From a virus, in the UHGV virus genome UHGV-1427736: a stretch of 33,069 bases of DNA. One strand, written 5' to 3'. Below are positions 1 to 24,811 of the stretch, piece by piece. Under the pieces are notes generated by a model. It did not search any database and was not told where the DNA came from. It was given only the letters and a program-made list of their open reading frames with translations. Position 1 is the stretch's first letter. Each line of letters begins with the position of its first letter. The translations under genes were made by a program, and so were the position numbers.

Positions 1-55
1 GTTACACATAGCGAAATCTGTAAAAATCCTCCCACCGCGACATAGAGGAGGAGAA

Positions 56-640
56 TTGATGGCCGTCATTGGTTATATCCGTGTATCAACAATCGACCAG
101 AACAGCGATTTACAGCGTAATGCACTCACAAGCGCAAACTGTGACCGCATTTTTGAAGACCGTATGAGCGGAAAAGTTGCCAGCCGCCCCGGTCTGAAAC
201 GCGCTTTAAAGTGCGTTAATAGCGGAGACACCCTGGTTGTGTGGAAACTGGACAGGCTGGGGCGCAGCGTTAAGAACCTGATCGCACTGATATCAGAGTT
301 GCATGAGCGCGGTGCCCACTTCCGCTCTTTAACAGACAGTATTGATACCAGCACTGCCATGGGGCGTTTCTTTTTCCATGTGATGTCGGCACTGGCGGAG
401 ATGGAACGTGAGCTAATCGTCGAACGTACACTTGCCGGACTGGCAGCAGCCAGAGCACAGGGACGCATAGGCGGAAGGCCCAACGCATTAAAGCCGCATG
501 AGCGGGAACAGATTGGGCGGCTATTAACTAAGGGGCATACCCGCCAGCAGCTGGCTATTGTCTACGGGGTGGGGTTATCGACGCTCTACCGGTATTTTCC
601 GGTAGATGGTCAGAGGAAGGATGACACGGTAGGATTGTAA
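56..640 (+). CDS. Serine recombinase / DNA invertase (Hin/Gin/Pin/Cin family)
   Basis: 194 aa. N-terminus IGYIRVSTIDQ with catalytic Ser context, and a C-terminal HTH (GVGLSTLYRYFP) closely matching Hin-family invertases as I recall them. GAGGAGGAG RBS ahead of the ATG. Confidence 0.85.
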   Translation: MMAVIGYIRVSTIDQNSDLQRNALTSANCDRIFEDRMSGKVASRPGLKRALKCVNSGDTLVVWKLDRLGRSVKNLIALISELHERGAHFRSLTDSIDTSTAMGRFFFHVMSALAEMERELIVERTLAGLAAARAQGRIGGRPNALKPHEREQIGRLLTKGHTRQQLAIVYGVGLSTLYRYFPVDGQRKDDTVGL

Positions 641-651
641 TTCTTTTGCAA

Positions 652-1017
652 CTACTGAAACGCCGCAGCGGTGCCATTTATCTCACGGAAATGGGCGCAT
701 TTATCGCGCGGCGCATCAACATCCGGCGCGCCCCGGTGTTCAACCTCATCAACGGTGAATTTCCCTTTGCATACCAGGGCAAAACCTTTCCAGCCGATAT
801 ACACCGTCAGGACAGCGCCACGAACCGGTAGCCCGACCTGCCCGTCGGCATCGTTCAGTTCAATATCAAGCTGGTCAGCCTCAAAGCCCCGGTTATCCGT
901 CAGGGTCATGCTCATCAGACGGTCGCTGATATTGCCGGTAATATCCCTGCTGTCGAGCATCAGCATGTAATCCGGCGTCAGCGTACTGCCTGCATCAAAT
1001 GTCAGTGCATCCAGCAT
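652..1017 (-). pseudogene. D: P2 gpD (tail/late-control protein D) N-terminal fragment, truncated
   Basis: Starts immediately after gpU, as in P2 gene order, and has the gpD-like N-terminus (MLDALTFDAGSTL...). It is only 121 aa against roughly 390 aa for full gpD; the last ~16 residues look unrelated, and the ORF ends 11 bp from the converging invertase stop. Confidence 0.6.
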
Positions 1018-1496
1018 TATCCCGCCCCCGTCATCCCCGTGAATCTGGTCGCCATACTGCCAGCTTTACCGATGAGCGATTCCGCCTGTTTACCGATATC
1101 GCCATAAAGCGCGGCCAGTGATTCATCAACGCGGGTGAGCGACAGCGTAAAATCAATTTTCCGGGGTGTGCCGTCTGCAAAGAAAATACTCCCTGTTTCA
1201 CTTACCCTGCTGATGACATACATGCCGTAAATCATGCCGGTGCCATCCAGCAACGGCCACGCCCGGCCTTCCTCTGCCATCATCCTGAGCGTGGTCATCG
1301 TCAGCTTTCCGCCGGTCAGTTCGGGATAAAGCACACCGGCCAGCGTGATGTTTTCCTCACCCACACCGAGAAACTGAAAAGCGTCCCGTTTACCGATACG
1401 GGAATTTGACGGCCAGCGATAATCTGATTCACGCTGCATGGTCTGGTGTGGCAGCGTCTGGCGCATAAAAACAAACATACCTAACGCGAGCATCAT
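1017..1496 (-). CDS. U: Tail protein gpU
   Basis: 159 aa, matching P2 gpU in length and in position between T and D. Confidence 0.8.
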   Translation of the reverse strand: MMLALGMFVFMRQTLPHQTMQRESDYRWPSNSRIGKRDAFQFLGVGEENITLAGVLYPELTGGKLTMTTLRMMAEEGRAWPLLDGTGMIYGMYVISRVSETGSIFFADGTPRKIDFTLSLTRVDESLAALYGDIGKQAESLIGKAGSMATRFTGMTGAG

Positions 1497-1510
1497 TTTT
1501 CGTCACCTCC

Positions 1511-3958
1511 TTAACCGTCATGCATCATGCTGGCACGGGCGCGCGCACGTTTATCCCGCTCGTATTTTTCGAGCGCATCCTGTAACTGGCGGTCAAGCTG
1601 TGTCCCCGGCGCAGTACCACCCGTCAGGCTGATGTGATATTCGTTTTTACTCTGGTCCACATAAGAGCGGCCAGCCGGTGCCGTAACCGGCTGATAAGCC
1701 TGATAACCTGCATAAGAGCTGGTCGCCGGAATATAACCACCGGTGCCATACGTGGCGGCATGAGTCCTTGCGGCGGTCTGGTCAAGTGTGTCTGACTCTT
1801 TGTTGATAACCCCGAGTTTTTCCAGTACCCAGTCAATACCGCTGCGCAGTTTGTTGAACGCATTAAGCGGCAGCATCAGCGCGTCAGCCAGTGCCTGCCC
1901 GAACATGACACCCGTGTCACGGCAACTGTTCAGGGTGTCCTGAGTGGCTTTGACCGGGGCAATCAGGTTTTTAAACCACTGCCACGCAGCCTGTAACTTT
2001 TCGCCCAGCCAGTCAAACACCGGTTTCAGTGGCGTGAACAGCTCCCCCACCGGCGCAAATGCCGCTTTCAGCCCTTCCACCACACCGCCAAAGAATGCGC
2101 TGACAGGCTCCCAGTATTTACGGATAAGTAACGCCCCGGCGACAATGGCGGCCACCACGGCCACAACCGGCCAGCTAATCGCCCCGATGGCGGTCATAAC
2201 AGCACTGCCAACCGTCGTGAAAATTGCCCCCATTGCGCCTGCTGCCGCGATGATGGCATTAATGCCGGTGATAACCGGCCAGGCTACAAGACCAATGGCA
2301 CCGATGATGCCAGTCAGCGCCAGTGCGCCACCGACAATGAGGCCGATGGTTGACGCCAGTGATTTGTTTTTCTGTATCCAGCCGTCGAGTTTTAACACAT
2401 ACTTTGTGGCCGTCTGCGTAAGCTTACGCAGTGCGCCTTCCTGCTGGTCAAACAGGTCTGTCCCCACCGCCTCATAAGCGGACTGAAACTCCTTAAAGTC
2501 ACCGCCGAGGTTGTCCTGCATGATATTTACCAGCTCGGCGGTCTTCCCGTCTGAGGCTTTAAACGCAGCGGTCAGTTTGTCCAGCTTTCCGGTTGAGGCG
2601 GCAGTCATCAGCACGGCGGCGGCTGAGCTGGCCTCCTCCCCGAAAATGGTTTTCATGTATTCAGCCTGCTGGGCAGTACCGAGCCGGTTTTTCTCAAAAC
2701 TGGCCTGCATTTCTTTCAGAATGGTAAATACTGGCCGGGTGTTTCCCTTGCTGTCTGAGGTTTTCACACCAAGCTCTTTCAGTGCATCCCATGCTTTTCC
2801 CGTCGGTGCCTGCAGGCGGCTTAACACGGCACGGCTTCCCGTCCCCGCCATTGAACCGGTAATTTTTGCATCATGCAGCGCCCCGACCATTGCGGCGGTT
2901 TCTTCAATGCTGACACCGGCATTTTTTGCCACAGGTGCGGCATAGGTCAGCGCATCGCTCATGCCGTCAAAATCGGCGGCGGTTTTGTTCATCGTCATGG
3001 AGAGAACATCCCCGATATGAGCGACCTTATCGTTTGAAAGCTGAAAGGCGGATTTCATCCCCATCAACAGGGCGGCGTTTTCTTCCATCGTGCGGCGGTT
3101 CGCCAGCGCCATGTTCAGCGTGACCGGCGTTGCCGCCTGAATGGCATCAACATCCCCACCGGCTTTCGCAATAATAATCTGCGCACCGGCTGCATCATCT
3201 GCCGAGGCGGCGGTATTGTCGCCGAGCTGGCGCGCCTGCTTGCGGAGTGCGGCCATTTCGGCGGAGTCTTTTGCCACACCTAGCACGGCCTGCAATTCTG
3301 AGTTTTTCTGCGCAAACTCATAACCGGGCATCAGTAGCTTAACACCGGCCATCGTTCCCGCCGCCGCAATCCCCACACCGGCAGCGCCCACTGAGGCCAT
3401 ATTTCCGGCCAGTTCCTTTCCGGCCTGATAACGCTGTTTTACTGCGTTAAGTTTTGCCTGTTGCGCACTGACACGCGCCAGCGCATCACGCTGACGGTTA
3501 AGCTGTGCGGTGGTTTCACTGATACGGTTTTTCAGTCCCTGCTCATCATGTGCAAGATTGCGGGTATTAATTCCCACAGCGGCCAGTTCCCGCTGCTGGC
3601 GTTTAACGGAATCTGTCAGGCGGTTATATTTCGCCTGTAAGTCCTCCGCCGCACGCTTTGCGGATTCCAGCACTTTCGCCTGAGCACGGGTCGGACGTTC
3701 GGTGTTTTTAAACTGTGTGGCAAGGGCTTCGGCTTCCTGCCGTGCCTTTTCAAGTGCATGACCAGTCACGGCGAGCTGTGCACTGGTCTTGCGGAATCCC
3801 TCAATACGGGATGCGTGACCGTTCAGCTCGCGCAGTGATTTTTGTGTTTCCCGGATATCCCCCGACAGCGACCTGCTCGCTGTACGGATGGATTTAAACG
3901 GGCGGGATGCCTGGTCAACAGCCCTGAGCAATACCTGTAATTTTACATTGTTACTCAT
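1511..3958 (-). CDS. T: Tail tape measure protein gpT
   Basis: Long Ala/Gly-rich protein with coiled-coil N-terminus and hydrophobic glycine-zipper segments, in the P2 T position. The ORF-track start at 3970 is a GTG; the first ATG (MSNNVKLQ) is at 3958 and has a GGAAG RBS. Confidence 0.85.
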   Translation of the reverse strand: MSNNVKLQVLLRAVDQASRPFKSIRTASRSLSGDIRETQKSLRELNGHASRIEGFRKTSAQLAVTGHALEKARQEAEALATQFKNTERPTRAQAKVLESAKRAAEDLQAKYNRLTDSVKRQQRELAAVGINTRNLAHDEQGLKNRISETTAQLNRQRDALARVSAQQAKLNAVKQRYQAGKELAGNMASVGAAGVGIAAAGTMAGVKLLMPGYEFAQKNSELQAVLGVAKDSAEMAALRKQARQLGDNTAASADDAAGAQIIIAKAGGDVDAIQAATPVTLNMALANRRTMEENAALLMGMKSAFQLSNDKVAHIGDVLSMTMNKTAADFDGMSDALTYAAPVAKNAGVSIEETAAMVGALHDAKITGSMAGTGSRAVLSRLQAPTGKAWDALKELGVKTSDSKGNTRPVFTILKEMQASFEKNRLGTAQQAEYMKTIFGEEASSAAAVLMTAASTGKLDKLTAAFKASDGKTAELVNIMQDNLGGDFKEFQSAYEAVGTDLFDQQEGALRKLTQTATKYVLKLDGWIQKNKSLASTIGLIVGGALALTGIIGAIGLVAWPVITGINAIIAAAGAMGAIFTTVGSAVMTAIGAISWPVVAVVAAIVAGALLIRKYWEPVSAFFGGVVEGLKAAFAPVGELFTPLKPVFDWLGEKLQAAWQWFKNLIAPVKATQDTLNSCRDTGVMFGQALADALMLPLNAFNKLRSGIDWVLEKLGVINKESDTLDQTAARTHAATYGTGGYIPATSSYAGYQAYQPVTAPAGRSYVDQSKNEYHISLTGGTAPGTQLDRQLQDALEKYERDKRARARASMMHDG

Positions 3959-4378
3959 TCGTGCTTCCACTTCGCCGGAGCGCCTTTTCGCGCCATGTGA
4001 TGAGTTCGGTCAGGCTCATGGGATACAGTTCTGATGGCGGCCAGTGAAATATCACTGCCACATCCGCCATCAGGTCATCGACCGACAGATTTTTCGGGAA
4101 CGTCACTGCACCGAGTTCGGCGACAAAAAACCGACCACCTTACCGGCCAGCGCCACAAGGTCAGGCAGTTCCAGTGCGGCGACTTCCTGCTCGGTCAGCA
4201 TCGGTGCAGTCATGCGCGGCAGCACCTTAATCAGTGCATCGACTTCGGAGTTCGCGACCGCAGCCAGACTGACACCGCGCAGCGTCCCGGCACTGGGTTT
4301 CATCAGCGTGACCTGTTCGATAACCTGCTCACCACGTTTGACCGGATTGTCCAGGGTAATCACATTTTCTTTGTTCAT
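3951..4378 (-). CDS. E': Tail assembly chaperone gpE+E' (programmed -1 frameshift product)
   Basis: Manual translation: after a -1 slip at the TTTTTTG heptamer (minus strand, 4124-4130) the frame continues VAELGAVTFPKNLSVDDLMADVAVIFHWPPSELYPMSLTELITWREKALRRSGSTNE and stops at 3951-3953, overlapping the T start. This matches the conserved E/E' arrangement upstream of the tape measure. Confidence 0.5.
4103..4378 (-). CDS. E: Tail assembly chaperone gpE
   Basis: 91 aa ORF in the P2 E position between FII and T, ending ...KVVGFLSPNSVQ just after the slippery site. Confidence 0.8.
   Translation of the reverse strand: MNKENVITLDNPVKRGEQVIEQVTLMKPSAGTLRGVSLAAVANSEVDALIKVLPRMTAPMLTEQEVAALELPDLVALAGKVVGFLSPNSVQ
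4124..4130 (-). other. Slippery heptamer TTTTTTG for the E/E' -1 ribosomal frameshift
   Basis: Plus strand reads caaaaaa at 4124-4130, i.e. TTTTTTG on the coding strand, 6 codons before the gpE stop. Confidence 0.55.
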
Positions 4379-4434
4379 GGTTTTCTCACTTCTGAATCAG
4401 GGTTAACCGGTCAGCCAGGCTGACCGGATGAAAA

Positions 4435-4953
4435 TCACAGGCCGATATTGCGGCGGTGTTGCTCCAGCCGGTCGACGCCGTTCACCTTCTCAATCATGTT
4501 GATGGTGTCGATTTCGACCAGCTCCTTACCGTCCATCGTCAGCCGGAAATAGGTACAGACCACGGAGATTTTCGACTCGGTGTCTTCTCCCTGTTTACCC
4601 TCGCCGGTATCGATTTCTTTCTGACGTCCACGCATGACCACTTCGACGGCAACCGTTTCGCCGGTATCGTCGCGCTGGTAAGAGCCAGCAAAACGAATCG
4701 GCACGGCATCCACGCCGGTTGCTGCGTAAAGCTCCCAGATAACCGAATCCGGGAAGCCACCGAGCGACCACTCCATTGACAGCGCATCGTCATCAAGGCC
4801 GAGGTCTACCGGTGCGCTGCCGTTCATCCCCGCACCGCGATAGTTTTCGAGCTTACGGGTCAGTTTTGGTAGCGTGACGGACTTCGCAACGCCCTGATAG
4901 CTGTAGCCGTTCAGAAAGACGTTCATTAACTTGAGTTTGCGCGGCATTGCCAT
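4435..4953 (-). CDS. FII: Tail tube protein gpFII
   Basis: 172 aa ORF in the P2 FII position immediately downstream of FI. Confidence 0.85.
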   Translation of the reverse strand: MAMPRKLKLMNVFLNGYSYQGVAKSVTLPKLTRKLENYRGAGMNGSAPVDLGLDDDALSMEWSLGGFPDSVIWELYAATGVDAVPIRFAGSYQRDDTGETVAVEVVMRGRQKEIDTGEGKQGEDTESKISVVCTYFRLTMDGKELVEIDTINMIEKVNGVDRLEQHRRNIGL

Positions 4954-4965
4954 CGGTCAGGCTCC

Positions 4966-6156
4966 TTAATTGCTGTTAACCGAGGTGACCAGATTTGCCA
5001 GGTATTTATCGGTAATACGCTGGCGCAGGGTCAGGTTTTCGAGAGGAGGCACCGGGGTATAGTCGTAGTCGATATACAGTTTTCCGGCCTTGAGGGTTTC
5101 CGCATCGTTGGATTCTTCGCTGAACCAGCAGGTCGCATCCACGATATAGCCGTTTGTTTTCAGCTCACGGAATTTGGCATTGATGCCGTCAACGATGTCG
5201 CGAATCAGCGTTGCGGTGATGGGCTTGTCCACCGCCCACATGTGCGCCTCAGCCATCGTGTCGGCCAGCACCTGCGCGGTGCGGGTGTAGTTTTCAAAGA
5301 GGAACAGCGGGTCATCAGAGCAGGTACGGTTACCCCAGAAGCGGAAACCGTCGCGGCGAATCAGCGTTGTGACGCCAGACTCGTTCAACAGGTCAGCATC
5401 GGTGCCGGACTCCTGCAAATCCCAGAATACAGATGCGCTGATGCCGGTAACACCGTTTACCCCGACGTTGGACAGCGTTTTATGCCAGCCCTGCTCCTGG
5501 TCGATTTTAGCGCGCAGACCCAGCGCACGGGCGGTGGCATACGCGGTGGCGGTGGTACTGGTGACCGTATCCCATGCGAGGAAATCCGGCCAGATGACCA
5601 TCAGCTCACGCTGGCTGAAATTCTGGCGGTAGGCTTTCACCTCGGAAATGGTCTTACAGCCCCATGCGCTGATATATCCGAAAGCGCGCAGCTTCTGACA
5701 GACGGATGCTAGTGCAACAGCCACCTCTTTGGTATCCAGTCCCGGCACACCGAGAATACGCGGTTTAACACCGGTTACCGACTCCGCCGCCAGCAGGGCT
5801 TTCAGTCCGGTGTACTGACCGTTTTCGTCGGTGGTGCCGATGATATTGGAAACGGTCTGCGCAAGTTTCGTTTCCTCGTCGTCGCCGGTGCCGTCTTCCA
5901 CACGCACGACAACGGTGACCGGTTTTGACTGGTCGGCGATGGCCTGCAACGATGCCGCCAGCGTGCCTTTTTTACCGGCCTTTGCAATTGCGCTCTGCAC
6001 ATTGGTAATCAACACCGGTTTATTGAGGGGGAAGGTTTCCGCATCCGCATCGCTGGCCGTGCAGACCATGCCGACAATGGCAGTGGATACGGTGGAAATG
6101 ACGCGGGTGCCGTCGTTAATCTCCAGCACCTGCACGCCATGATGATAGTCACTCAT
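4966..6156 (-). CDS. FI: Contractile tail sheath protein gpFI
   Basis: Sheath-protein-sized ORF in the P2 FI position. The ORF-track start at 6309 gives a 51-aa N-terminal extension; I place the start at the ATG at 6156 (MSDYHHGVQVLE...), which has a GGAG RBS. Confidence 0.85.
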   Translation of the reverse strand: MSDYHHGVQVLEINDGTRVISTVSTAIVGMVCTASDADAETFPLNKPVLITNVQSAIAKAGKKGTLAASLQAIADQSKPVTVVVRVEDGTGDDEETKLAQTVSNIIGTTDENGQYTGLKALLAAESVTGVKPRILGVPGLDTKEVAVALASVCQKLRAFGYISAWGCKTISEVKAYRQNFSQRELMVIWPDFLAWDTVTSTTATAYATARALGLRAKIDQEQGWHKTLSNVGVNGVTGISASVFWDLQESGTDADLLNESGVTTLIRRDGFRFWGNRTCSDDPLFLFENYTRTAQVLADTMAEAHMWAVDKPITATLIRDIVDGINAKFRELKTNGYIVDATCWFSEESNDAETLKAGKLYIDYDYTPVPPLENLTLRQRITDKYLANLVTSVNSN

Positions 6157-6655
6157 CCGTTTAACTCCGTGGTTAATGGGTGCAACTATTTTCTGTTGTG
6201 CAGAGCATGAGACGCTATTTGACCTGGCTGGCCAGTGGATGAAACAACAGATAAAGAAAAGGCGGGCAATCAGCCCGCCAGCCTTGATTTGCACTCTCTC
6301 AATTTCCAACTGACAAAATACGTAGCCAAAACGCTATCAAATCTGACAGCCTGCTTTGAGCGAGAAACAGACATGGATGGCATACAGTGAAAGTAGCCGC
6401 ACAATGAGCATCACTGCAATTCTGAATTCAAGCTCTAATACTATTGAGACCGTATCATACAGTCACTCGCAAAAATTACTTTACCTGAGTGAAAAAATTG
6501 ATTCCAAGCAAAATGAAAACTTGTAATTCATTATTACATGCATAATAATGAATAAAAACTTGAGCTATATAAACCAAAGTTGTTCCGAATAGTCCGTTGA
6601 GACATCACTCGAATTATAGGAATACAAGGTTTTATTTTTATAAGGAATCGCTCCC

Positions 6656-8920
6656 ATGGGTTTGCAAAGCATAAGAATAAAAAACTTACTATCATTTAAT
6701 GATGTAATAATAAATTCCCTAGAGGATGTAAATTGCATTGTAGGGATGAATAATGTTGGCAAATCCAATCTTATGAAAATATTGAAATATTTTTACGACA
6801 AACTTGACGACATAAAAGTAATACCTCCTGATTTTCATTCTAGTTATACTCCTTCAGGGTCAATAACATTGACTTATGATGTAACAAGAATAAAGAGAAT
6901 TGTAATGAACCCTAATAACAATGGTCGCTTTCACAAGCATATTTATAACACTTTATTTAAGCCACAATCATTCATCCGAAAGCCGCAGAAATTCTGTCTT
7001 CCTTTCATATCTCCTTTGGGTTTCCAAAGAAAAAGCACTTATAGCATTACACTCACAATTTCTAAAGATGACTCCGTAACTTGGTCAATTAGCACACCAA
7101 ATGCCCGGCATCTAATTAAAACTCTATTTCCTTTTTTCCATATTGAAACCAGACACATTGACTTATACGACTGGAATAGCATATGGAAAATGCTCAGCAG
7201 TATAAATTCCTTTAATTTCTCTGAAATAAAAAAAGAAGAACTCCTTGAGTTTTTGAATGAGAAAATATCAACTAAGCGGGGTAGTTACAAGAAGTATATA
7301 GAAAGAGTTGAAAATGTAATCCATACTAAACCTTACACCTATAAAGATAAAGTCGTTAATTATCTAAAAATAGTTTTAGATGGCGATATTTTCATAAATA
7401 AAGGTGAAGAACTACATGTTCAGTCGGATGGCACGAACTCTCACAAATATCTTGAAATTATACTTAGCCTATTAATTTCATTAACAAGAACAGAATTTAT
7501 CAATCCAATTATATATATTGATGAACCTGAAATTGGGCTACATCCAAAACTTAGCGAGAACTTTATTGAGAACATAAGCCTGACATATAAAAAGTATGAT
7601 AAAACCCATGAGGAAATTGAGCCTGGAAAATATTCAACACCATATCCAACTCTTATATTTAGCACTCATTCTCCGAGTTTACTAAAACTCACGCTAAAAT
7701 CTTTCTTACATAAACAGCAGGTTTTGCATTTTTCAAAAGAACGTGACAACTCGACCAAAATTTCAAAATTAAACTCTAAATATAATGACATTAGATTTAT
7801 AAATATGCTTAGCGATAATGAGGCCCGTCTATTCTTTAGTGAATACATTCTATTTGTAGAGGGCGCCACAGAAGTTGAATTGTTTAGAAATTATAATCTG
7901 CAAAAGCTGTTTCCAGTACTTAAAAGGTTAGATGTGTATGATTGCGATGAAGTAATGTTGAAAAATATAAACCCCAGCTACTCAAATGCAGCCATCCCAT
8001 TTCTAGTAGTAAAGGATATTGATCAGATTGCCGTTGTTGACTTCGAACATGAACAATTTAAATTTAATTCGAAAGGGAAATCAATTATTAATAAAATCAT
8101 TAAGAGAGATAAACTACACTATTTTTCGACATACCAAAAACCTTTTCTTAACGCAGCAAAATTTCTTTTAAGCCAAGATGAAAGGAAAGTAACATTCAGT
8201 GAAAATGGCCTAAAATTCAGACACTTCAGTATAGGCAGAGTTATAAGCGCAGTTAATTTTTTATCCTCTAAAGATAATGTTTATTATACTTCTACAACGA
8301 TAGAAGGCTCATTGATCAATGAATTCTCTTTAGAGACATTCTCTTTATGGATCATTGACATAGTAATGAGAAGCTTTAATGTAAATAATAAAAACCCTGT
8401 AAAAATGATTAATGCTCTGCTGCAAAAATACGATATTAAAACCCAATCAAAACAACTTTTTCCCAAAATACTTTCAAAATGTGAAACAAATCATAACCTA
8501 CCATTGCGACACATGAGATTATTGAAAATCATTAAAATTAGATATGCTAAAGAAATAATTGATGAGTTTAAAAAAACCATCCCCGACGTAAAAGACCAAG
8601 TTGCTATCTTGCGCCTTATTTTTAGTGGCAAAACAGAAACTCTTGTAAGTATAGAAATGCATTATAAAATTGATCAAAAACCGATACGGCAAGATATATT
8701 GGATTATATCAAAGCATTAAAGTCAGAAAATTTCTCTTTTATGAGTTCTTACATAGGAAAGACTTCTGGATGGGTTACAAGCTTCATTGATTTTAGCCTT
8801 AATCATTATTCAGCCCTAGATAAAGAAAATGTCGAAAAAAAATTCCGCTTGGCTTTTCCTGAAATTTCGCATATCATCGATCATGCTTCTTCTTCGATAG
8901 AAGCTGGAGGGCTCAAATGA
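6656..8920 (+). CDS. OLD-family nuclease: ABC-type ATPase fused to a C-terminal Toprim-like domain
   Basis: 754 aa. Walker A GMNNVGKSN (aa ~30), Walker B/D-loop IIYIDEPEIGLHP, H-loop LIFSTHSPS; then FVEGATEVELF (aa ~400) and VVKDIDQ (aa ~455), consistent with Toprim Glu and DxD motifs. Gene is markedly AT-rich compared with the flanking phage genes. Confidence 0.7.
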   Translation: MGLQSIRIKNLLSFNDVIINSLEDVNCIVGMNNVGKSNLMKILKYFYDKLDDIKVIPPDFHSSYTPSGSITLTYDVTRIKRIVMNPNNNGRFHKHIYNTLFKPQSFIRKPQKFCLPFISPLGFQRKSTYSITLTISKDDSVTWSISTPNARHLIKTLFPFFHIETRHIDLYDWNSIWKMLSSINSFNFSEIKKEELLEFLNEKISTKRGSYKKYIERVENVIHTKPYTYKDKVVNYLKIVLDGDIFINKGEELHVQSDGTNSHKYLEIILSLLISLTRTEFINPIIYIDEPEIGLHPKLSENFIENISLTYKKYDKTHEEIEPGKYSTPYPTLIFSTHSPSLLKLTLKSFLHKQQVLHFSKERDNSTKISKLNSKYNDIRFINMLSDNEARLFFSEYILFVEGATEVELFRNYNLQKLFPVLKRLDVYDCDEVMLKNINPSYSNAAIPFLVVKDIDQIAVVDFEHEQFKFNSKGKSIINKIIKRDKLHYFSTYQKPFLNAAKFLLSQDERKVTFSENGLKFRHFSIGRVISAVNFLSSKDNVYYTSTTIEGSLINEFSLETFSLWIIDIVMRSFNVNNKNPVKMINALLQKYDIKTQSKQLFPKILSKCETNHNLPLRHMRLLKIIKIRYAKEIIDEFKKTIPDVKDQVAILRLIFSGKTETLVSIEMHYKIDQKPIRQDILDYIKALKSENFSFMSSYIGKTSGWVTSFIDFSLNHYSALDKENVEKKFRLAFPEISHIIDHASSSIEAGGLK

Positions 8921-9034
8921 GCTGACGCATGCCGTCACTTGCTCCAGCAAACACTAGCTCGGATTGTCTTGCGTCCGCTAAGCCGCTTTAAGCCTCACGG
9001 GGTGTAAAGATGTTATTGGTATCGAAGAGGAAGC
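8885..9034 (+). ncRNA. Candidate retron msr-msd (non-coding RNA) flanked by a1/a2 inverted repeats
   Basis: GCTTCTTCTTCGAT (8885-8898) and ATCGAAGAGGAAGC (9021-9034) form a 14-bp inverted repeat with one G-U wobble, enclosing ~122 nt that is GC-richer than the flanks. Inside: stem GCTGGAG (8903-8909) / CTCCAGC (8942-8948) around two small hairpins (GCTCA..TGAGC and TGACG..CGTCA). The repeat lies directly upstream of the RT and a2 overlaps its RBS. Confidence 0.3.
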
Positions 9035-9040
9035 TTTTAC

Positions 9041-10138
9041 ATGAAACATAAAATTAATAAAATTAACAATGATTTTTATAAAAATTTTTATCTAAGAGAA
9101 ACATTCTCCGATGATATTATTATGACTCACGGAGTCCCTGAGATTTCCAATGACGATTATAAAAGCATTTCATTAAAGAATAGATTATGTTTCACTATAA
9201 GAAAAAGCTCCCCGCATAAAAAAATACAAGAAAGACTTATAAAAAATTTCCTAGTAAAAGTTCCTCTTAGCTCACCTGCAATTGCCTATCGTAAAAAATT
9301 AAACTATTTGAATTTTCTAGAACCTCATATCCATGGTGAGAACTTTTGTCGAATTGACTTATGTAATTTTTTTCATAACATAAACTATAACTTTGCAAGG
9401 GAGTGTTTCAAATCCTACTTTGAAGATGAATATCTGGTAAATAAAAAAATCAAAGTTATTGATGCATTTTTAAATAGTTTATCTATTGAGATTGTAGTCA
9501 ACAATAAAAAGAAAAAAATATTTCCAATGGGATTCGCCACATCACCTTTCATATCCAATATAATTTTCAGAAAGTTAGATATTTTAATTAAAAGTTTGTG
9601 TGACAAAAGAAGCATCATTTACACTCGTTATGCTGATGATATGCTTTTTTCGAGCTCCGGGAAAGACAAACTTCTTGGAAGTGAACATTTTGACAACGAG
9701 ATATCAACTATTGTCAATACGGCAGGACTGTCCCTCAACAAACATAAAAAAATATTTAAGAAAGGCATAATCTCACTAAACGGCTATGTAATAGAAAATA
9801 AAAATGGAGGGGGAGAGAGAGGGAGTATAAGAATATCTAATGGAAAAATGTATTTAATACGGAAAGCACTAGATAAATTTAAAAAGGGATATTCTAAAGA
9901 GCATATTTGCAAAAAAGTATTTTCTGTTAAATCACCAACTGTCAAGTATAATAACAATGCAGATCAGTTTGTAACGGATTTTTATAATTCACAATTCTCT
10001 AATAAGTTAGCTGGTTATCGTTCATATTTAATATCATTAGTAAAATTTAATGATAAATTCAGATGTTTTCACGAAAACGAAATCACCAAATACTCAGTGA
10101 TTATTGATGAAATTTCTAATGCACTGCTAAAACCCTAG
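9041..10138 (+). CDS. Retron-type reverse transcriptase
   Basis: 365 aa. RT motifs IFPMGFATSPFISNIIFRKLD and IIYTRYADDMLF (YADD box), plus PHIHGENFCRIDLCNFF, align closely with the retron Ec86 RT as I recall it. Size and lack of extra domains fit a retron RT. GAGGAAG RBS. AT-rich. Confidence 0.8.
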   Translation: MKHKINKINNDFYKNFYLRETFSDDIIMTHGVPEISNDDYKSISLKNRLCFTIRKSSPHKKIQERLIKNFLVKVPLSSPAIAYRKKLNYLNFLEPHIHGENFCRIDLCNFFHNINYNFARECFKSYFEDEYLVNKKIKVIDAFLNSLSIEIVVNNKKKKIFPMGFATSPFISNIIFRKLDILIKSLCDKRSIIYTRYADDMLFSSSGKDKLLGSEHFDNEISTIVNTAGLSLNKHKKIFKKGIISLNGYVIENKNGGGERGSIRISNGKMYLIRKALDKFKKGYSKEHICKKVFSVKSPTVKYNNNADQFVTDFYNSQFSNKLAGYRSYLISLVKFNDKFRCFHENEITKYSVIIDEISNALLKP

Positions 10139-10158
10139 CCTTAGAAAGTTAATGTTTT

Positions 10159-10176
10159 GGCCCTAAAGCAAGGGCC
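10159..10176 (+). terminator. Hairpin downstream of the RT gene (possible terminator)
   Basis: GGCCCT-aaagca-AGGGCC stem-loop about 20 nt after the RT stop, but followed by TTAATAG rather than a clean T-run. Confidence 0.3.
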
Positions 10177-10560
10177 TTAATAGTAAAAATAGTTACCAGC
10201 ATAAGTATTCCTTCAACTAATCACACAAATTAACGTTAGCAACGTTCCCTTTTTACACCGTCTGAGCACTAAGCTGTCGGTCATTCTGGTCTACCATACT
10301 ATTATACGTAACATCCAAGAGTGTTCCTGCAAACGGTCGTAGAAAATGCGGGCTTCGCCATTTTCTGGCCGACGCCGGTCTCGTCGAGTTCTTCTGACTG
10401 TTCAAGTGCAAATGCGCCTGTAGGTATCCCTACAAAAGAAACCATCAACTTTTAGATAGTATCTGGCACTCCAACTCCCGCTGTTGACTCGGAGCGGACT
10501 GTCAGATTAGGCTTTACTCTGTACCATAGATACGTTAGCTCACTCCAGAGATCATACAAC

Positions 10561-11088
10561 TTATTGCGGCATGTCCGGCCATTCAGGATTTGAAGGGTCC
10601 ACACGACTGACCAGAACGCTGTAGCGTTCCCATGCATCCAGTCGACTGCGCTCCTCACCTGTTGCCATATTCAGCCTGACAGCGCGCTCCAGCGGCAAAA
10701 TTACGGATTCAGCTTCGGAAAGCAAAGCTGCCTTATGTAATTCCGCTAGTTTCTGCTGTTCGTCTGCCGTATAAATCCGCTTAATCACGGCACCATCCTT
10801 AAACATCCATTTACCTGAGTCATCAGCACGCCGGTTGGCAGTAATATCAGGAACCTCAACGACGCTAAAACCTTCAGGATTAAGCGTTGAAGCATCTCTG
10901 GTGATGGCGACAATAATATTATTTTCATCGTAAACAATCTTTATTGTGTCTGGCTGAAAATTACTTACTTCCTCATACCAGTTTTTTCCGTCTTCGGACC
11001 ATAACCAGATAACATCAAAATTCTTTGTTAGCTGATATTGCTCTTTTGTTTTTGGATTACCTGACTTAATGTTCTTTAAATGCTGCAT
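10561..11088 (-). CDS. G: Tail fiber assembly protein gpG
   Basis: 175 aa, same length as P2 gpG, directly downstream of H. Confidence 0.85.
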
Positions 11089-11091
11089 TAC

Positions 11092-12969
11092 TTACACCTG
11101 CGCAACGTTATACCATGTGCCATTGATGTATTTTTGTATCGGCCTGAAGATGGCCTCATCATCGCCATCTACTTCACCAATGATTCTTAATCCGGTAATC
11201 GTGTGTCCGGCTTTTTCATAACGACCACCTCGCGCCATCAATTGAACAACTCGCGTACCCAGGCGAACATCTTTCACATAGCGGGAATCAAAATTCCCCC
11301 AGTTGCTGGGTTGCATCTGACCGTTAACAGCAAATATTACCGAGTTATCTGTATTTCGCTGGCTATAGAAATGCCATCCGGACTCATCGCCTAACTCTGC
11401 AACCACTGGACGGTTGGAAGCACCCCATAAATTAAAGGTAATATTCTTCGTGGATGTGTTAGAGCTGGATAGCGAGAACTTTTTACTATCCCCTGCCTGA
11501 ATATTTTTAAAAGCAATAGCCACTCCATTCTGAAAACGGAATACACGCTGACTGTTAGCATAAACATCAAGAATACCGTCTCCATTCTGTTTAAATCCGG
11601 TATCATTATCACCAAGGACAATAGAGCTACCACCTAGTGCATTCGTCGTACCAACTCCAAGACAGCCATTAATGACGGCATTAACAAGAATATTTAGTGC
11701 ATCCCATTTCAGCGTCATCAGGTCTTTTGTTGTGGTACTCTGGCGGCTTCTCCATTTGAAATATTCATTGCCGTTATCCCCCGTTTCAAACCACATGTAT
11801 GAATCAGCGTCACCATCGGCATCATTTTTAAATCCAATCTTCGCCCAGTCAGTATTTCGAATCCAGGCAAGGATTGAGTCGTTTTCAAAAGTAATCCCGC
11901 CGGACAAGGTATCGCCATTCTTTTGCACCGCGTTCCTGGCCCTGTTTACCGTTTCCTGCAAACCGAGGTATTCGATAACGGCAGCAATGGTCGCTTTAGC
12001 CAGAATATCCCGCCCGACTTTTGTCAGGGTTGCCAAACTGGCAACATCATTCCCCGTAAAATACGGAAAGCTGTCTGCCGCAGTAGCAAGCCCCGCCAGC
12101 GCCGTCAGAGTGGCATCTTTCGGTTGCTTACCCGCAAGCGCATTAGTCATGGAGGTAGCAAAATTCGGGTCATTGCCCAGCGCCGCCGCCAGCTCGTTCA
12201 GCGTATTCAGTGCGTCAGGCGACGAGTCTACAATGGCGGCAATCGCGGCCATAACGAAAGCCGTGTTTGCGATCTGAGTATTATTCGTTCCCTGTCGCGC
12301 AGTTGGCGTCGTTGGCGTTCCGGTCAGTGCAGGGCTGTTTAATGGCGCTTTTTTGTTCGCTTCATCCATTACCGTCTTAACAGCTTTTGGTGTTGCGGCG
12401 AGCGTTTCAGACGTGCTGTTGGTCGCACTGCTTAACTGAGTAAAACCTTTTGCGGTCAGCGAGGCGTCAGGGTGACGTCGTGACTGTTCATGTTCTGCAA
12501 TTTTGTCATCAACGTAATCCTGCGTTGCCATCACCGTTGTGGTGTCAATGGTCAGCGCCACTGAGGCCACACTGCTGACGATGATGACCATGCGGCAGGT
12601 CTGCGAACGCCCTGAGCCTTCGGCAAGGGCAGGCTTATAACTTTCGGCCATGTTCGCCACGGCAATTAACGTTCCCGCATCATCGTACAGGCCAAGCTCA
12701 CGCATCCAGAAACCGCCCACCTCCGGCGGAATAACCAGCTCTGCGATAATATAATTACTGTTTCGTTTGTCCTGGCTGATTTTGTTCAGCGTATGTCGCC
12801 AGACTTCGTGGATAAGCCCGGTCTGTCCGGCATCCGGGACAGGCAATTTACCACCGCCATCCCCGACGGCCATCGTGGTAATGTTGACCTTCCGCCCTCC
12901 CGGTGCGGTTGCCGCTGCCAGCTTTGCTGCACCGGCAGTGGTGATAACGGTTTTGAATTTTGTGCTCAT
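11092..12969 (-). CDS. H: Tail fiber protein gpH
   Basis: 625 aa. Conserved P2 H-like N-terminus (MSTKFKTVITTAGAAKLAAATAPGGRKVNITTMAVGDGGG) with a variable C-terminal receptor-binding region. Confidence 0.85.
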   Translation of the reverse strand: MSTKFKTVITTAGAAKLAAATAPGGRKVNITTMAVGDGGGKLPVPDAGQTGLIHEVWRHTLNKISQDKRNSNYIIAELVIPPEVGGFWMRELGLYDDAGTLIAVANMAESYKPALAEGSGRSQTCRMVIIVSSVASVALTIDTTTVMATQDYVDDKIAEHEQSRRHPDASLTAKGFTQLSSATNSTSETLAATPKAVKTVMDEANKKAPLNSPALTGTPTTPTARQGTNNTQIANTAFVMAAIAAIVDSSPDALNTLNELAAALGNDPNFATSMTNALAGKQPKDATLTALAGLATAADSFPYFTGNDVASLATLTKVGRDILAKATIAAVIEYLGLQETVNRARNAVQKNGDTLSGGITFENDSILAWIRNTDWAKIGFKNDADGDADSYMWFETGDNGNEYFKWRSRQSTTTKDLMTLKWDALNILVNAVINGCLGVGTTNALGGSSIVLGDNDTGFKQNGDGILDVYANSQRVFRFQNGVAIAFKNIQAGDSKKFSLSSSNTSTKNITFNLWGASNRPVVAELGDESGWHFYSQRNTDNSVIFAVNGQMQPSNWGNFDSRYVKDVRLGTRVVQLMARGGRYEKAGHTITGLRIIGEVDGDDEAIFRPIQKYINGTWYNVAQV

Positions 12970-12979
12970 TATTCCTCAC

Positions 12980-13510
12980 TTATCCGGGGTAAACCGTAAT
13001 TACATCGCCGTCGTAAGCCACACCACCGGCGAACAGGTAGCCGGGAATGTCCCGGGTAATGTTCAGGCCAATAAGATGACGGCTTGCAGGTTTGGCATCA
13101 GCAATCAGCCGTTCCATTTCCTGATACATTGCCTCTGTGATGCCACTTTCCAGTACACCAATATCAAGCCGGAAGGTGCCGGGCGGGTCACTGTTTTCCC
13201 ACCACTCCGTCACGTTGATGAGATAGCCGAGCGGCTCCACCACACGCCGGATTGCACCGATAGTGCCCTTATGACAGTGGATGAAATAGGCATCGCGGAT
13301 AACGGCGCGTTTTGTCGCTTCCGGCCACTTTTCATCCCACCTGTCGACCGAAAACGCCCACGCCAGCCACGGCAGCAGATTTGCCGGACAGGTATCCGGG
13401 TTCCACAGTTCACGAATCCTGACCGGCGTTTTTTCAATTTCCGCACAGGCTTTTGCGGCGGCAACTTCAAGCGGTGATGAGCCGGTCGGCAGCAGTCGCG
13501 AATCACTCAT
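12980..13510 (-). CDS. I: Baseplate assembly protein gpI
   Basis: 176 aa ORF in the P2 I position between J and H. Confidence 0.85.
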   Translation of the reverse strand: MSDSRLLPTGSSPLEVAAAKACAEIEKTPVRIRELWNPDTCPANLLPWLAWAFSVDRWDEKWPEATKRAVIRDAYFIHCHKGTIGAIRRVVEPLGYLINVTEWWENSDPPGTFRLDIGVLESGITEAMYQEMERLIADAKPASRHLIGLNITRDIPGYLFAGGVAYDGDVITVYPG

Positions 13511-14411
13511 CCGAGCCTCCGGTCACGACGCGGTATTCGGTACAGAAAGACGCCTGCGTACTGTTGAGCACGATGTCGGCCAGCGGTGCAGTCAGTTCGA
13601 CACGCTGCACGCCTTCCACATGCAAAGCGGCATAAATGGCAGACAGACGGATGTCGCGCCCCAGCCGGTGCTGTGCCGTGATGTACGCTTCCAGTTTTTT
13701 CACGGCAGCAGCGCGTATGGGTTCGCTTTCGGGACCAGGGTAAAGGTAAAGCGTGGCGTTTATCTGGTATTCAACGATGGCGGCAGACTGCACGGTCACG
13801 CGGTCGGCCACCGGCCTGACGTCCTCGCCATTAAGGGCGTTACGCACCACCGCCAGCAGGTCTTCGGATGCGACACCGTTATTTTCACGTGACAGCACAG
13901 AGATGGTGACGCAGGCCGGAGACGGACTGGTGACAGAGATATCTGCGACACGCCCGTCGGCACTTCGACCATGATACTGATAGGCTCCCACCGACCCGGC
14001 GACGCTTAAGCCCTCAAACGCCTGCTGAATACGCAGACGATAATCGGTGTCAGACTCCATCACTGCCGGTGTCGACGGGATGGTCGAATCATCTGCCGGG
14101 GTGATAATCAGGCGCGTGGTGTTGTAATTGGCACCAATCACATCAAGGTCATTACCGGCAGCACAGGCCAGCATTACCGCCCGTGCGGCCTCATTCACAC
14201 GCTGACGCCAGATAAGCTCACGATAAGCATTTTCCTCCAGCAGTTTGACGAGAGGCTCGGATTCCAGCATCAGGGTACGGGCGACCGCCTCCTGCTGGTC
14301 CTCCGGGTAAAGGGAAATCAGTGTCGCCTTGCGTTCAGCGAGAATGGTTTCAAAGTCCAGCTCCTCGACTACATCCGGTGCGGGTAGCTGGTTCAGGTCG
14401 ATAATCGGCAT
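13503..14411 (-). CDS. J: Baseplate protein gpJ
   Basis: 302 aa ORF in the P2 J position, overlapping the I start. Confidence 0.85.
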   Translation of the reverse strand: MPIIDLNQLPAPDVVEELDFETILAERKATLISLYPEDQQEAVARTLMLESEPLVKLLEENAYRELIWRQRVNEAARAVMLACAAGNDLDVIGANYNTTRLIITPADDSTIPSTPAVMESDTDYRLRIQQAFEGLSVAGSVGAYQYHGRSADGRVADISVTSPSPACVTISVLSRENNGVASEDLLAVVRNALNGEDVRPVADRVTVQSAAIVEYQINATLYLYPGPESEPIRAAAVKKLEAYITAQHRLGRDIRLSAIYAALHVEGVQRVELTAPLADIVLNSTQASFCTEYRVVTGGSDE

Positions 14412-23608: not shown

Positions 23609-24642
23609 TGAGCAAGAAAAAAGGGAAAACACCGCAACCTGCGGCAAAAAAAATGACCGCCAGCGCCCCGAAAATGGAGGCATTCACCTTTGGTGAGCCG
23701 GTGCCGGTACTCGACCGCCGTGACATTCTGGATTACGTCGAGTGCATCAGTAACGGCAGATGGTATGAGCCACCGGTCAGCTTTACCGGTCTGGCAAAAA
23801 GCCTGCGTGCTGCCGTACATCACAGCTCACCGATTTACGTCAAACGTAATATTCTGGCTTCAACGTTTATTCCGCACCCGTGGCTTTCCCAGCAGGATTT
23901 CAGCCGCTTTGTGCTGGATTTTCTGGTGTTCGGTAATGCGTTTCTGGAAAAGCGTTACAGCACCACCGGTAAGGTCATCAGACTGGAAACCTCACCGGCA
24001 AAATATACCCGCCGTGGTGTGGAAGAGGATGTTTACTGGTGGGTGCCGTCCTTCAACGAGCCGACAGCCTTCGCGCCCGGCTCCGTGTTTCACCTGCTGG
24101 AGCCCGATATTAATCAGGAGCTGTACGGCCTGCCGGAATATCTGAGCGCCCTTAACTCTGCCTGGCTGAATGAGTCGGCCACGCTGTTCCGCCGCAAGTA
24201 TTACGAAAACGGCGCACATGCCGGATACATCATGTACGTCACTGATGCCGTGCAGGATCGCAACGATATCGAAATGCTTCGCGAAAACATGGTGAAGTCG
24301 AAAGGCCGCAACAACTTTAAAAACCTGTTTCTCTATGCCCCGCAGGGGAAAGCCGACGGCATTAAAATTATCCCGCTCAGTGAAGTGGCAACGAAGGACG
24401 ATTTTTTTAATATCAAAAAAGCCAGCGCCGCTGACCTGCTGGACGCGCACCGCATCCCCTTTCAGTTGATGGGCGGCAAGCCGGAGAACGTCGGGTCGCT
24501 GGGCGATATTGAGAAAGTGGCAAAGGTCTTTGTCCGCAATGAGCTTATCCCGTTACAGGACAGGATCCGCGAGATAAACGGCTGGCTCGGTCAGGAGGTC
24601 ATCCGCTTTAAAAACTACTCACTGGACACTGACAACGGCTGA
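23608..24642 (+). CDS. Q: Portal protein gpQ
   Basis: 344 aa ORF; ATGA overlap with the P stop, as in P2. Confidence 0.9.
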   Translation: MSKKKGKTPQPAAKKMTASAPKMEAFTFGEPVPVLDRRDILDYVECISNGRWYEPPVSFTGLAKSLRAAVHHSSPIYVKRNILASTFIPHPWLSQQDFSRFVLDFLVFGNAFLEKRYSTTGKVIRLETSPAKYTRRGVEEDVYWWVPSFNEPTAFAPGSVFHLLEPDINQELYGLPEYLSALNSAWLNESATLFRRKYYENGAHAGYIMYVTDAVQDRNDIEMLRENMVKSKGRNNFKNLFLYAPQGKADGIKIIPLSEVATKDDFFNIKKASAADLLDAHRIPFQLMGGKPENVGSLGDIEKVAKVFVRNELIPLQDRIREINGWLGQEVIRFKNYSLDTDNG

Positions 24643-24669: not shown

Positions 24670-24811
24670 ACACCCCGTCATCACGCCCTCACACGTTCGC
24701 CACTGTACAAAACACCCCGCAGACACACCAACGCCCCGGCAGGCCGACTAAACGCCATCACGACGCGCTCAGACGCTGAAAAAATAAAATCAGCACCACC
24801 GCCAGCGCGCA

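What the first reader, a model, noticed from the sequence alone, without database searches (positions are those of the whole stretch)
6656..8920. OLD-family effector is large, with a long insert between Walker A and Walker B
At 754 aa the protein is longer than P2 Old as I recall it. About 270 residues separate Walker A (GMNNVGKSN) from Walker B (IDEPEIGLHP), which in OLD and ABC ATPases is where a coiled-coil or dimerisation insert sits. The Toprim-like region has E (VEGATE) and KDID rather than textbook acidic clusters. A further ~280-residue Lys-rich C-terminal extension of unknown function follows.
Basis: seen in the sequence. Interest (0 to 1): 0.45.

Follow-up and report, generated by a model that had tools for sequence, protein, structure and literature searches.

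The report
Retron-Eco8-family OLD nuclease on P2 prophage
The 754-residue protein is an ordinary, already annotated member of the Retron-Eco8 family of ATP-binding DNA-cutting defence proteins, sitting next to its reverse transcriptase and small RNA inside a P2-like prophage, and its size, internal insert and long tail are the normal build of that family.

Summary
It is the effector of a type I-B2 retron, a "class 3A" OLD nuclease of the Retron-Eco8 family. It scores 654 bits against NCBIfam NF038234 (cutoff 250) and E=1.6e-210 against PADLOC ATPase-Toprim_I-B. It aligns end to end with the solved Retron-Eco8 OLD nuclease (E=3e-227, about 51% identity), and an AlphaFold model superposes on it at TM 0.84-0.87. 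RefSeq already names the identical protein "retron Eco8 family effector endonuclease".

The retron ncRNA (about 8883-9036) and an RT_I-B reverse transcriptase (9041-10138) follow directly.

- The Walker A-to-B insert is the Eco8 helical dimerisation domain.
- VEGATE and KDID are the canonical Toprim Glu and DxD motifs, invariant in 55 relatives.
- The "C-terminal extension" is the expanded Toprim domain typical of this class. It carries catalytic E550, K659 and K702.

Family members are 735-761 aa, so the length is normal.

The cassette replaces fun(Z) in a prophage about 97% identical to P2. The only mild differences from Eco8 are a shorter msd stem-loop 2 and non-conserved KxxK and FDYY residues. 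Verdict: already known, low interest.

The parts
6656..8920 (+). OLD-family effector CDS (754 aa), Retron-Eco8 family, class 3A OLD nuclease
   Evidence: ORF. NCBIfam NF038234, 654 bits against cutoff 250. PADLOC ATPase-Toprim_I-B, E=1.6e-210. PDB Retron Eco8 OLD nuclease, E=3e-227, residues 1-750 against 1-743. Foldseek TM 0.84-0.87. RefSeq WP_023304001.1 is identical.
6743..6769 (+). Walker A / P-loop GMNNVGKSN (aa 30-38; K36 corresponds to Eco8 K36)
   Evidence: G30, N32, N33, G35, K36 and N38 invariant. Eco8 K36A abolishes defence (PMC12887533).
7148..7435 (+). Helical dimerisation/tetramerisation insert within the ATPase domain (aa 165-260; Eco8 161-256)
   Evidence: Mapping at 64.6% identity. 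Eco8 domain borders come from PMC13402713 and PMC12887533. The AF2 model shows helices 173-243 but at low pLDDT.
7517..7546 (+). Walker B IDEPEIGLHP (aa 288-297; D289 and E290 invariant)
7838..8917 (+). Expanded Toprim nuclease domain (aa 395-754; Eco8 391-750). Catalytic residues: E402 and E406 (nt 7859-7873), D454 and D456 (nt 8015-8023), E550 (nt 8303-8305), K659 (nt 8630-8632), K702 (nt 8759-8761)
   Evidence: Residue mapping. All are invariant in 55 sequences. The Eco8 equivalents are essential for defence (PMC12887533 section 24). Pfam PF20469 gives a weak hit at aa 393-456. The structural match covers the full length.
8883..9036 (+). Retron ncRNA (msr-msd). IRa1 is 8885-8899, inside the OLD coding 3' end. 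Branching G is 8900. Predicted msr is 8900-8957. Predicted msd template is 8949-9018 (about 70-nt msdDNA). IRa2 is 9020-9034.
   Evidence: 84% identity to another Eco8-family locus whose proteins are only 52% and 43% identical. The a1/a2 stem occurs in related loci, always as ...GATA-G / G-TATC.... It is 15 bp, with compensatory changes at most pairs in an 11-locus alignment. MFE is -58.7 kcal/mol, z=-3.55. Numbering was transferred from L038, which is 99% identical to PDB Eco8.
9041..10138 (+). Retron reverse transcriptase (365 aa), RT_I-B; YADD at aa 197-200 (nt 9629-9640)
   Evidence: PADLOC RT_I-B, E=2.7e-106. Pfam RVT_1. PDB Retron Eco8 RT, E=6.5e-88. YADD position.
6310..10560 (.). Low-GC (0.29-0.39) moron island between tail sheath gene FI (4966-6156, -) and tail fibre assembly gene G (10561-11088, -). 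It occupies the position of fun(Z) in phage P2.
   Evidence: Composition. RefSeq annotation of the identical locus. The window is about 97% identical to P2 outside the islands. P2 map G - fun(Z) - FI.
8849..8877 (+). Promoter-like site TTGGCT-17-TATCAT inside the OLD 3' coding region, ending about 6 nt before the predicted ncRNA 5' end (inferred, weak)
   Evidence: but the number of such sites in the region is at chance level. A TATNNT box sits at the same distance from IRa1 in most related loci, though it also encodes the conserved PE..II peptide.

Best explanation
The protein is the effector nuclease of a three-part type I-B2 retron of the Retron-Eco8 family (OLD gene, ncRNA, RT gene), carried as a lysogenic-conversion cassette in the fun(Z) slot of a P2-like prophage.

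Shown here by sequence and structure comparison: an N-terminal ABC-type ATPase split by a helical dimerisation insert, and a C-terminal expanded Toprim nuclease with all catalytic residues intact. An intact ncRNA and a YADD-containing RT lie directly downstream.

Inferred by homology to Eco8, whose cryo-EM structures and mutants are published:
- The RT copies the msd part of the ncRNA into a roughly 70-nt msdDNA branched from G8900.
- Four RT-msDNA units dock on a tetramer of the OLD protein and hold the nuclease autoinhibited. msd stem-loop 1 is lassoed around helices carrying F92, H95 and Y97 of a neighbouring OLD subunit.
[quoted passage not shown] The Toprim DNA channel opens.
- The nuclease then degrades phage and host double-stranded DNA, killing the cell before the phage completes its cycle (abortive infection).
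For: Family membership:
- NCBIfam equivalog NF038234, 654 bits against cutoff 250.
- PADLOC ATPase-Toprim_I-B, E=1.6e-210, and RT_I-B, E=2.7e-106.
- Full-length phmmer match to PDB Retron Eco8 OLD nuclease, E=3e-227, and to the Eco8 RT, E=6.5e-88.
- AF2 model (pLDDT 81) superposes on Eco8 OLD chains at TM 0.84-0.87. GajA and Thermus OLD come next, at TMq 0.30-0.42.
- The identical protein is already named in RefSeq.

Intact active sites:
- K36, D289/E290, E402, E406, D454, D456, E550, K659 and K702 are conserved with Eco8 and invariant in 55 relatives.
- F92, H95 and Y97, the msd SL1 contacts, are conserved.

ncRNA:
- a1/a2 stem with compensatory changes and a significant fold.
- msd SL1 is 19 of 24 identical to Eco8.
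- The order OLD-ncRNA-RT occurs in 31 of 33 related genomic loci.

Mechanism and domain borders come from PMC12887533 and PMC13402713.
Against: - Nothing here is experimental for this allele.
- It is only about 51% identical to Eco8 (RT 43% to another family member; not computed against Eco8 itself), and the C-terminal 280 residues only about 35%.
- Eco8 residues shown to matter for DNA binding or activation are not conserved at the aligned positions: KxxK K460/K463 map to E464/Q467, FDYY maps to FSTY, and R664/K665 map to D673/Q674. The alignment is least certain in exactly this region.
- The predicted msr (58 against 64 nt) and msd (70 against 75 nt) are shorter. Stem-loop 2, the SSB docking site in Eco8, differs in sequence and folds weakly.
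- Pfam's Toprim model is below its gathering score, and Rfam has no matching family for the ncRNA.
Confidence: 0.9

Rival explanations
1. Same family, different sensing. This roughly 51%-identity subclade (E. coli, Serratia, Pectobacterium, Morganella, Edwardsiella, Proteus) assembles like Eco8. But its msd stem-loop 2 and activation-loop residues differ, so it responds to a different set of phage SSBs, or to a different trigger, and so has a different phage range.
For: SL2 is shorter, is unrelated in sequence to Eco8 SL2, and varies even among 82-84% identical relatives. KxxK and FDYY are not conserved. In Eco8, SL2 is the SSB docking site and FDYY is needed for activation (PMC13402713). SSB phylogeny is reported to determine Eco8 specificity (PMC12887533 abstract).
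Against: SSBs bind ssDNA with little sequence preference. SL1, its protein contacts and all catalytic residues are conserved. No data here bear on the trigger.
Confidence: 0.25
2. A stand-alone class 1 OLD nuclease like P2 Old, acting by itself, with the neighbouring RT unrelated.
For: The host element is P2-like, and P2 is the phage that encodes the founding Old protein. PADLOC Old gives a partial hit, E=8e-16.
Against: The Old hit is about 195 orders of magnitude weaker than ATPase-Toprim_I-B and covers only residues 2-160 in its best stretch. An RT_I-B follows in 31 of 33 related loci, with a covarying ncRNA between the genes whose IRa1 is embedded in the OLD ORF. In Eco8 the OLD protein alone has no dsDNA cleavage activity (PMC12887533 abstract).
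Confidence: 0.01
3. A Gabija GajA (class 2 OLD) or a fused PARIS AriA-AriB (class 4) protein.
For: Many PADLOC GajA and AriA profiles hit at E=1e-8 to 1e-17. GajA structures are the next-best structural matches.
Against: These hits reflect the shared OLD/ABC-ATPase fold only. TMq is 0.30-0.42 against 0.82-0.87 for Eco8 OLD. The island holds only two ORFs of at least 60 aa that fit its layout, so there is no GajB/UvrD-like helicase gene.
Confidence: 0.01
4. A decayed, non-functional retron remnant carried passively by the prophage.
For: It is rare: only 2 of 5,426 complete E. coli genomes carry this allele.
Against: Both ORFs are intact and full length. All catalytic residues, YADD, the branching G and the a1/a2 stem are intact. 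The two genomes that carry the allele are 99.5-100% identical to the window across the island, and 78-84% identical orthologues exist in five other genera.
Confidence: 0.03

Closest known systems
Retron-Eco8 OLD nuclease (E. coli 200499; UniProt P0DV58; PDB 9lbq, 9lp9, 9lpa, 9p4j, 9x94 and others), class 3A OLD of a type I-B2 retron
   Same: Same length class (754 against 750 aa). Same domain order: ATPase, helical dimerisation insert, expanded Toprim. All catalytic and msd-SL1-contact residues are the same. Same gene order OLD-ncRNA-RT, with IRa1 embedded in the OLD 3' end (encoding ASSSIE). The conserved msd SL1 is shared. TM 0.84-0.87.
   Different: About 51% identity overall and about 35% in the last 280 residues. 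KxxK, FDYY and part of the basic patch are not conserved at the aligned positions. There is a 4-residue insertion in the poorly ordered 104-124 loop. msr is about 6 nt shorter and msd about 5 nt shorter, with a different SL2. It sits in a P2 prophage fun(Z) slot rather than a chromosomal island next to an integrase.
Gabija GajA (class 2 OLD), e.g. PDB 8sm3, 8x5i
   Same: ABC-ATPase with a dimerisation insert plus a Toprim nuclease using Glu and DxD. It forms a tetrameric core. It is the next-best structural match.
   Different: GajA partners with the GajB helicase, not an RT and msDNA. Its Toprim domain is smaller and lacks the all-helical insertion (Eco8 568-638 and 651-696). Sequence identity is 12-15%, and the query-normalised TM-score is 0.30-0.42.
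Phage P2 Old and Thermus scotoductus OLD (class 1 OLD), PDB 6p74
   Same: Founding members of the same ATPase-Toprim superfamily. P2 Old is likewise a P2 moron gene that excludes other phages.
   Different: They are stand-alone genes of about 580 aa or fewer. P2 Old is encoded at the other P2 hotspot (old/tin, between A and Q). Here that hotspot holds an HNH-domain gene instead. The query-normalised TM-score is 0.32.
Phage P2 fun(Z) lysogenic-conversion locus
   Same: Same position between G and FI. Same orientation, antisense to the tail operons. Same role as a non-essential phage-exclusion cargo slot.
   Different: The cargo is entirely different: a retron instead of the single fun(Z) gene.

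Membership tests
Retron-Eco8 family effector (class 3A OLD; type I-B2 retron) | Passes the curated family model over its full length | tested here: met
   NCBIfam NF038234 (equivalog), 654.4 bits against cutoff 250, residues 1-747 on profile positions 1-678 of 679. PADLOC ATPase-Toprim_I-B, E=1.6e-210.
Retron-Eco8 family effector (class 3A OLD; type I-B2 retron) | N-terminal ABC-type ATPase with Walker A Lys and Walker B Asp/Glu, interrupted by a helical dimerisation domain | tested here: met
   Pfam AAA_15 and AAA_21 above cutoff. K36, D289 and E290 are invariant. The insert at aa 165-260 aligns to Eco8 161-256 at 65% identity. The AF2 model is helical there but at low confidence.
Retron-Eco8 family effector (class 3A OLD; type I-B2 retron) | C-terminal Toprim active site: Glu after beta1, a second Glu, DxD, a distal Glu and two Lys (Eco8 E398, E402, D450, D452, E544, K653, K693) | tested here: met
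   The window has E402, E406, D454, D456, E550, K659 and K702. All are identical to Eco8 and invariant in 55 sequences.
Retron-Eco8 family effector (class 3A OLD; type I-B2 retron) | Expanded Toprim domain with an extra all-helical insertion running to the C-terminus | tested here: met
   The alignment to Eco8 is continuous to residue 750. The AF2 model has pLDDT about 90 over 500-750 and TM 0.84-0.87 to full-length Eco8 OLD chains.
Retron-Eco8 family effector (class 3A OLD; type I-B2 retron) | Retron RT of the I-B clade encoded directly downstream (OLD upstream means class 3A / I-B2) | tested here: met
   RT_I-B, E=2.7e-106. Eco8 RT, E=6.5e-88. YADD at aa 197-200. The arrangement occurs in 31 of 33 related loci.
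Retron-Eco8 family effector (class 3A OLD; type I-B2 retron) | msr-msd ncRNA between OLD and RT, with a1/a2 inverted repeats flanking a branching G | tested here: met
   IRa1 8885-8899, G8900, IRa2 9020-9034. The stem is 15 bp and 11 of its pairs show changes on both sides across 11 loci. z=-3.55. Positional homology to the Eco8 ncRNA.
Retron-Eco8 family effector (class 3A OLD; type I-B2 retron) | DNA-channel and activation residues shown to be functional in Eco8 (KxxK 460-463, FDYY 481-484, K662/R664/K665) | tested here: inconclusive
   The aligned positions are E464/Q467, FSTY and K671/D673/Q674. Other Lys residues lie nearby (K469-K483), and the alignment is least reliable in this region. 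These residues are not family-invariant.
Retron-Eco8 family effector (class 3A OLD; type I-B2 retron) | msDNA synthesis, 4:4:4 RT:msDNA:OLD assembly, phage-SSB-triggered dsDNA cleavage, abortive infection | not testable with these tools
   Known for Eco8 only (PMC12887533, PMC13402713). Inferred here by homology.
Class 1 OLD (P2 Old / Ts OLD) | Stand-alone gene without a dedicated partner | tested here: not met
   RT and ncRNA are adjacent and conserved.
Class 2 OLD (Gabija GajA) | Adjacent GajB UvrD/PcrA-like helicase gene | tested here: not met
   The island contains only the OLD and RT genes. GajA profiles score about 1e-14 against 1e-210 for I-B.

The most novel reading that the evidence does not exclude
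This P2-borne subclade is about 51% identical to Eco8. It has a shorter, unrelated msd stem-loop 2 and lacks Eco8's KxxK and FDYY residues. It may therefore recognise a different phage trigger, or a different range of SSBs, than Eco8. If so, msd SL2 variation would be the specificity determinant that diversifies this retron family, here used by a P2 prophage to exclude competitors from the fun(Z) slot.
Probability: 0.2. Interest if true: 0.35.

Novelty: already known. Interest (0 to 1): 0.12.

Why it matters
It matters little beyond correct annotation. The features flagged as odd are the defining architecture of class 3 OLD nucleases, solved by cryo-EM in 2025-2026: the size, the insert between the Walker motifs and the long C-terminal region. 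The exact protein is already named in RefSeq.

The locus is a tidy natural example of a P2-like prophage carrying a complete Eco8-type retron in the fun(Z) moron slot. As a divergent allele, it could help test which msDNA and Toprim-loop features set trigger specificity.

Tried and rejected
- Rfam at a permissive E-value over 6000-11200 found no RNA family. The ncRNA had to be defined by comparison with related loci.
- Pfam's OLD-like_TOPRIM hit is below its gathering score (17.3 against 23.2 bits), so Pfam alone could not settle Toprim. The PDB sequence match and the fold search did.
- Megablast against complete E. coli genomes found this allele in only 2 of 5,426 genomes. The distant mode was needed to reach other Eco8-family loci at about 68% DNA identity.
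- The first Python attempt failed because a locus file had not yet synchronised.
- The promoter scan gave a well-placed site upstream of the ncRNA, but the number of sites in the region equals the shuffled expectation. It is reported only as a weak lead.
- A tblastn search for P2 tail genes next to the closest orthologous retrons (Pectobacterium, Serratia) found none within 4 kb. The cassette is therefore not tied to P2-like phages.
- Only one phage record, a Vibrio phage, carries a relative, at 35% identity.
- Class 1 OLD, GajA and PARIS readings were considered and rejected on scores and gene content.
- The Lys-rich character of the C-terminus was checked and found to be marginal.
Full report
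**Observation**

The window has an ORF at 6656-8920 on the + strand encoding 754 residues. The quoted motifs are present:
- GMNNVGKSN at residues 30-38
- IDEPEIGLHP at 288-297
- VEGATE at 401-406
- KDID at 453-456

The gap between the Walker motifs is 249 residues, not about 270. The gene lies in a 4.2-kb low-GC island (0.29-0.39, against about 0.56 around it). The island also holds a 365-residue ORF at 9041-10138 (+).

**Identity**

Both proteins match retron type I-B models very strongly.
- The large protein hits PADLOC ATPase-Toprim_I-B at E=1.6e-210 over residues 1-747. The small one hits RT_I-B at E=2.7e-106.
- NCBIfam's equivalog model NF038234, "retron Eco8 family effector endonuclease", scores 654 bits against a cutoff of 250.
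- Against the Protein Data Bank, the only hit for the large protein is the Retron Eco8 OLD nuclease. It scores E=3e-227 and aligns residues 1-750 to 1-743 with only small gaps. The RT hits the Eco8 RT at E=6.5e-88.
- Global identity to Eco8 OLD is about 51%: 57-65% in the ATPase and its insert, 51% in the Toprim core, and 35% in the last 280 residues.
- An AlphaFold2 model built from 55 relatives (pLDDT 81, and about 90 over residues 500-750) superposes on Eco8 OLD chains at TM 0.84-0.87 over the full length. GajA and Thermus OLD follow at query-normalised TM-scores of 0.30-0.42.
- The identical DNA occurs in E. coli UPEC85, where RefSeq annotates WP_023304001.1 as "retron Eco8 family effector endonuclease".
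- Full-length relatives are 735-761 aa, so 754 aa is the family norm.

**What the flagged features are**

The Eco8 cryo-EM papers (PMC12887533 and PMC13402713) describe three parts:
- an ATPase domain, residues 1-390
- a helical insertion within it, residues 161-256, which mediates dimerisation and tetramerisation
- a Toprim domain, residues 391-750, which is "significantly expanded" relative to class 1 and class 2 OLDs by an all-helical insertion (568-638 and 651-696) that lines the DNA channel

VEGATE supplies E402 and E406, and KDID supplies D454 and D456. These are the canonical Toprim Glu and DxD, not an atypical pattern.

The "C-terminal extension" is part of Toprim. It carries E550, K659 and K702, which correspond to Eco8 E544, K653 and K693; mutation of each abolishes Eco8 defence.

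All of these residues, plus K36 and D289/E290, are invariant across 55 family members. The C-terminal region has 11.4% Lys against 9.5% elsewhere, a marginal enrichment in a protein that is Lys- and Ile-rich throughout because of its AT-rich DNA.

**The rest of the system**

The 120-nt spacer plus the last 36 nt of the OLD ORF encode the retron ncRNA.
- A 15-bp inverted repeat is formed by IRa1 (8885-8899) and IRa2 (9020-9034). It flanks the branching G at 8900 and a G-G pair at 9018-9019.
- This region is 84% identical to another Eco8-family locus whose proteins are only 52% and 43% identical to those in the window.
- Across 11 loci, 11 of the 15 a1/a2 stem pairs show changes on both sides that keep the pairing; the four pairs at the GATA/TATC end are invariant or vary on one side only. 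An msr hairpin covaries as well.
- The RNA folds at z=-3.55 against shuffles.
- A Klebsiella locus (L038) is 99% identical to the PDB Eco8 protein, and its ncRNA reproduces the published Eco8 numbering exactly. Transferring that numbering gives a predicted window msr of 8900-8957 (58 nt against 64) and a predicted msd template of 8949-9018 (about 70 nt against 75).
- msd stem-loop 1 is 19 of 24 identical to Eco8. Stem-loop 2 is shorter and unrelated in sequence.
- The order OLD-ncRNA-RT, which defines class 3A / type I-B2 (PMC10568477), holds in 31 of 33 related genomic loci.

**Mechanism (inferred by homology)**

- The RT makes the branched msDNA.
- Four RT-msDNA units bind an OLD tetramer and keep it autoinhibited.
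- Phage SSB binds the msdDNA and opens the Toprim channel.
- dsDNA is then degraded and the cell dies before the phage completes its cycle.

The SL1-contact residues F92, H95 and Y97 are conserved. Eco8's KxxK (K460/K463), FDYY loop and R664/K665 are not conserved at the aligned positions. Together with the different SL2, this leaves room for a different trigger range, but nothing here tests that.

**Context**

Outside two low-GC islands, the window is about 97% identical to phage P2. In P2, the slot between G and FI holds fun(Z), transcribed antisense to the tail genes. Here the retron occupies that slot in the same orientation.

The closest orthologues (78-84% identity, in Serratia, Pectobacterium, Morganella, Edwardsiella and Proteus) show no P2 tail genes within 4 kb. 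The cassette is therefore mobile between contexts.

**Verdict**

The features thought unusual are the normal, structurally solved architecture of class 3 OLD nucleases, and the protein is already annotated as such. This is already known and of low interest.

Noticed in passing
window 24700-26900: There is a second low-GC island (about 0.38) between portal gene Q (23608-24642, +) and replication gene A (26911-29229, -). This is the P2 old/tin hotspot. It holds a 443-aa ORF (25470-26801, -) with a C-terminal HNH_2 domain (PF13391, E=6.6e-11; PADLOC 'HNH', E=2e-11) and a 139-aa ORF (24959-25378, -) with no Pfam or PADLOC hit. So P2's own class 1 Old is absent from its usual slot while a class 3 OLD sits in the other moron slot.
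   Followed up: partly
window 8885-8920: The ncRNA's IRa1 and branching G lie inside the OLD coding sequence. GCTTCTTCTTCGATAGAAGC encodes the near-invariant C-terminal peptide ASSSIEA. The conserved C-terminus of the protein may therefore reflect an RNA-structure constraint as much as a protein one. In more distant subclades (e.g. L011, L020-L025, L033) IRa1 lies 20 nt or more downstream of the stop instead.
   Followed up: partly
window 8849-8877: A sigma-70-like site, TTGGCT-17-TATCAT, ends about 6 nt before the predicted ncRNA 5' end. A TATNNT box sits at the same distance from IRa1 in most related loci. This suggests an internal promoter for ncRNA-RT embedded in the OLD 3' coding region. 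However, it overlaps the conserved PE..II codons, and the number of promoter-like sites in the region is at chance level.
   Followed up: partly
window 8958-8985 (msd stem-loop 2 template): The msd SL2 segment differs even among 82-84% identical orthologues (window, L003 and L004). It is unrelated in sequence to Eco8 SL2, while SL1 is nearly invariant. In Eco8, SL2 is the phage-SSB docking site (PMC13402713).
   Followed up: partly
window 10139-10560: About 420 nt downstream of the RT stop have no ORF of 60 aa or more, apart from one that overlaps gene G. A terminator-like hairpin lies at 10370-10386 (+). P2 has a putative rho-independent terminator for the V operon at the equivalent place.
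   Followed up: no
L002 (E. coli ECKH-505), locus 1-14404: A different Eco8-family retron (52% identical effector) occurs in about 50 complete E. coli genomes. It sits in a chromosomal island next to an 'ABC-three component system', IS1/IS630 fragments and a disrupted DUF4917 gene, not in a P2 prophage.
   Followed up: no
H15, E. coli JNE21-009 (NZ_AP041814.1) 2440214-2442925: In other P2-like prophages the same G/FI slot carries different cargo, e.g. an M48 metalloprotease plus an AbiGi-family antitoxin, or single hypothetical genes. This is consistent with the slot being a variable moron/defence hotspot.
   Followed up: no
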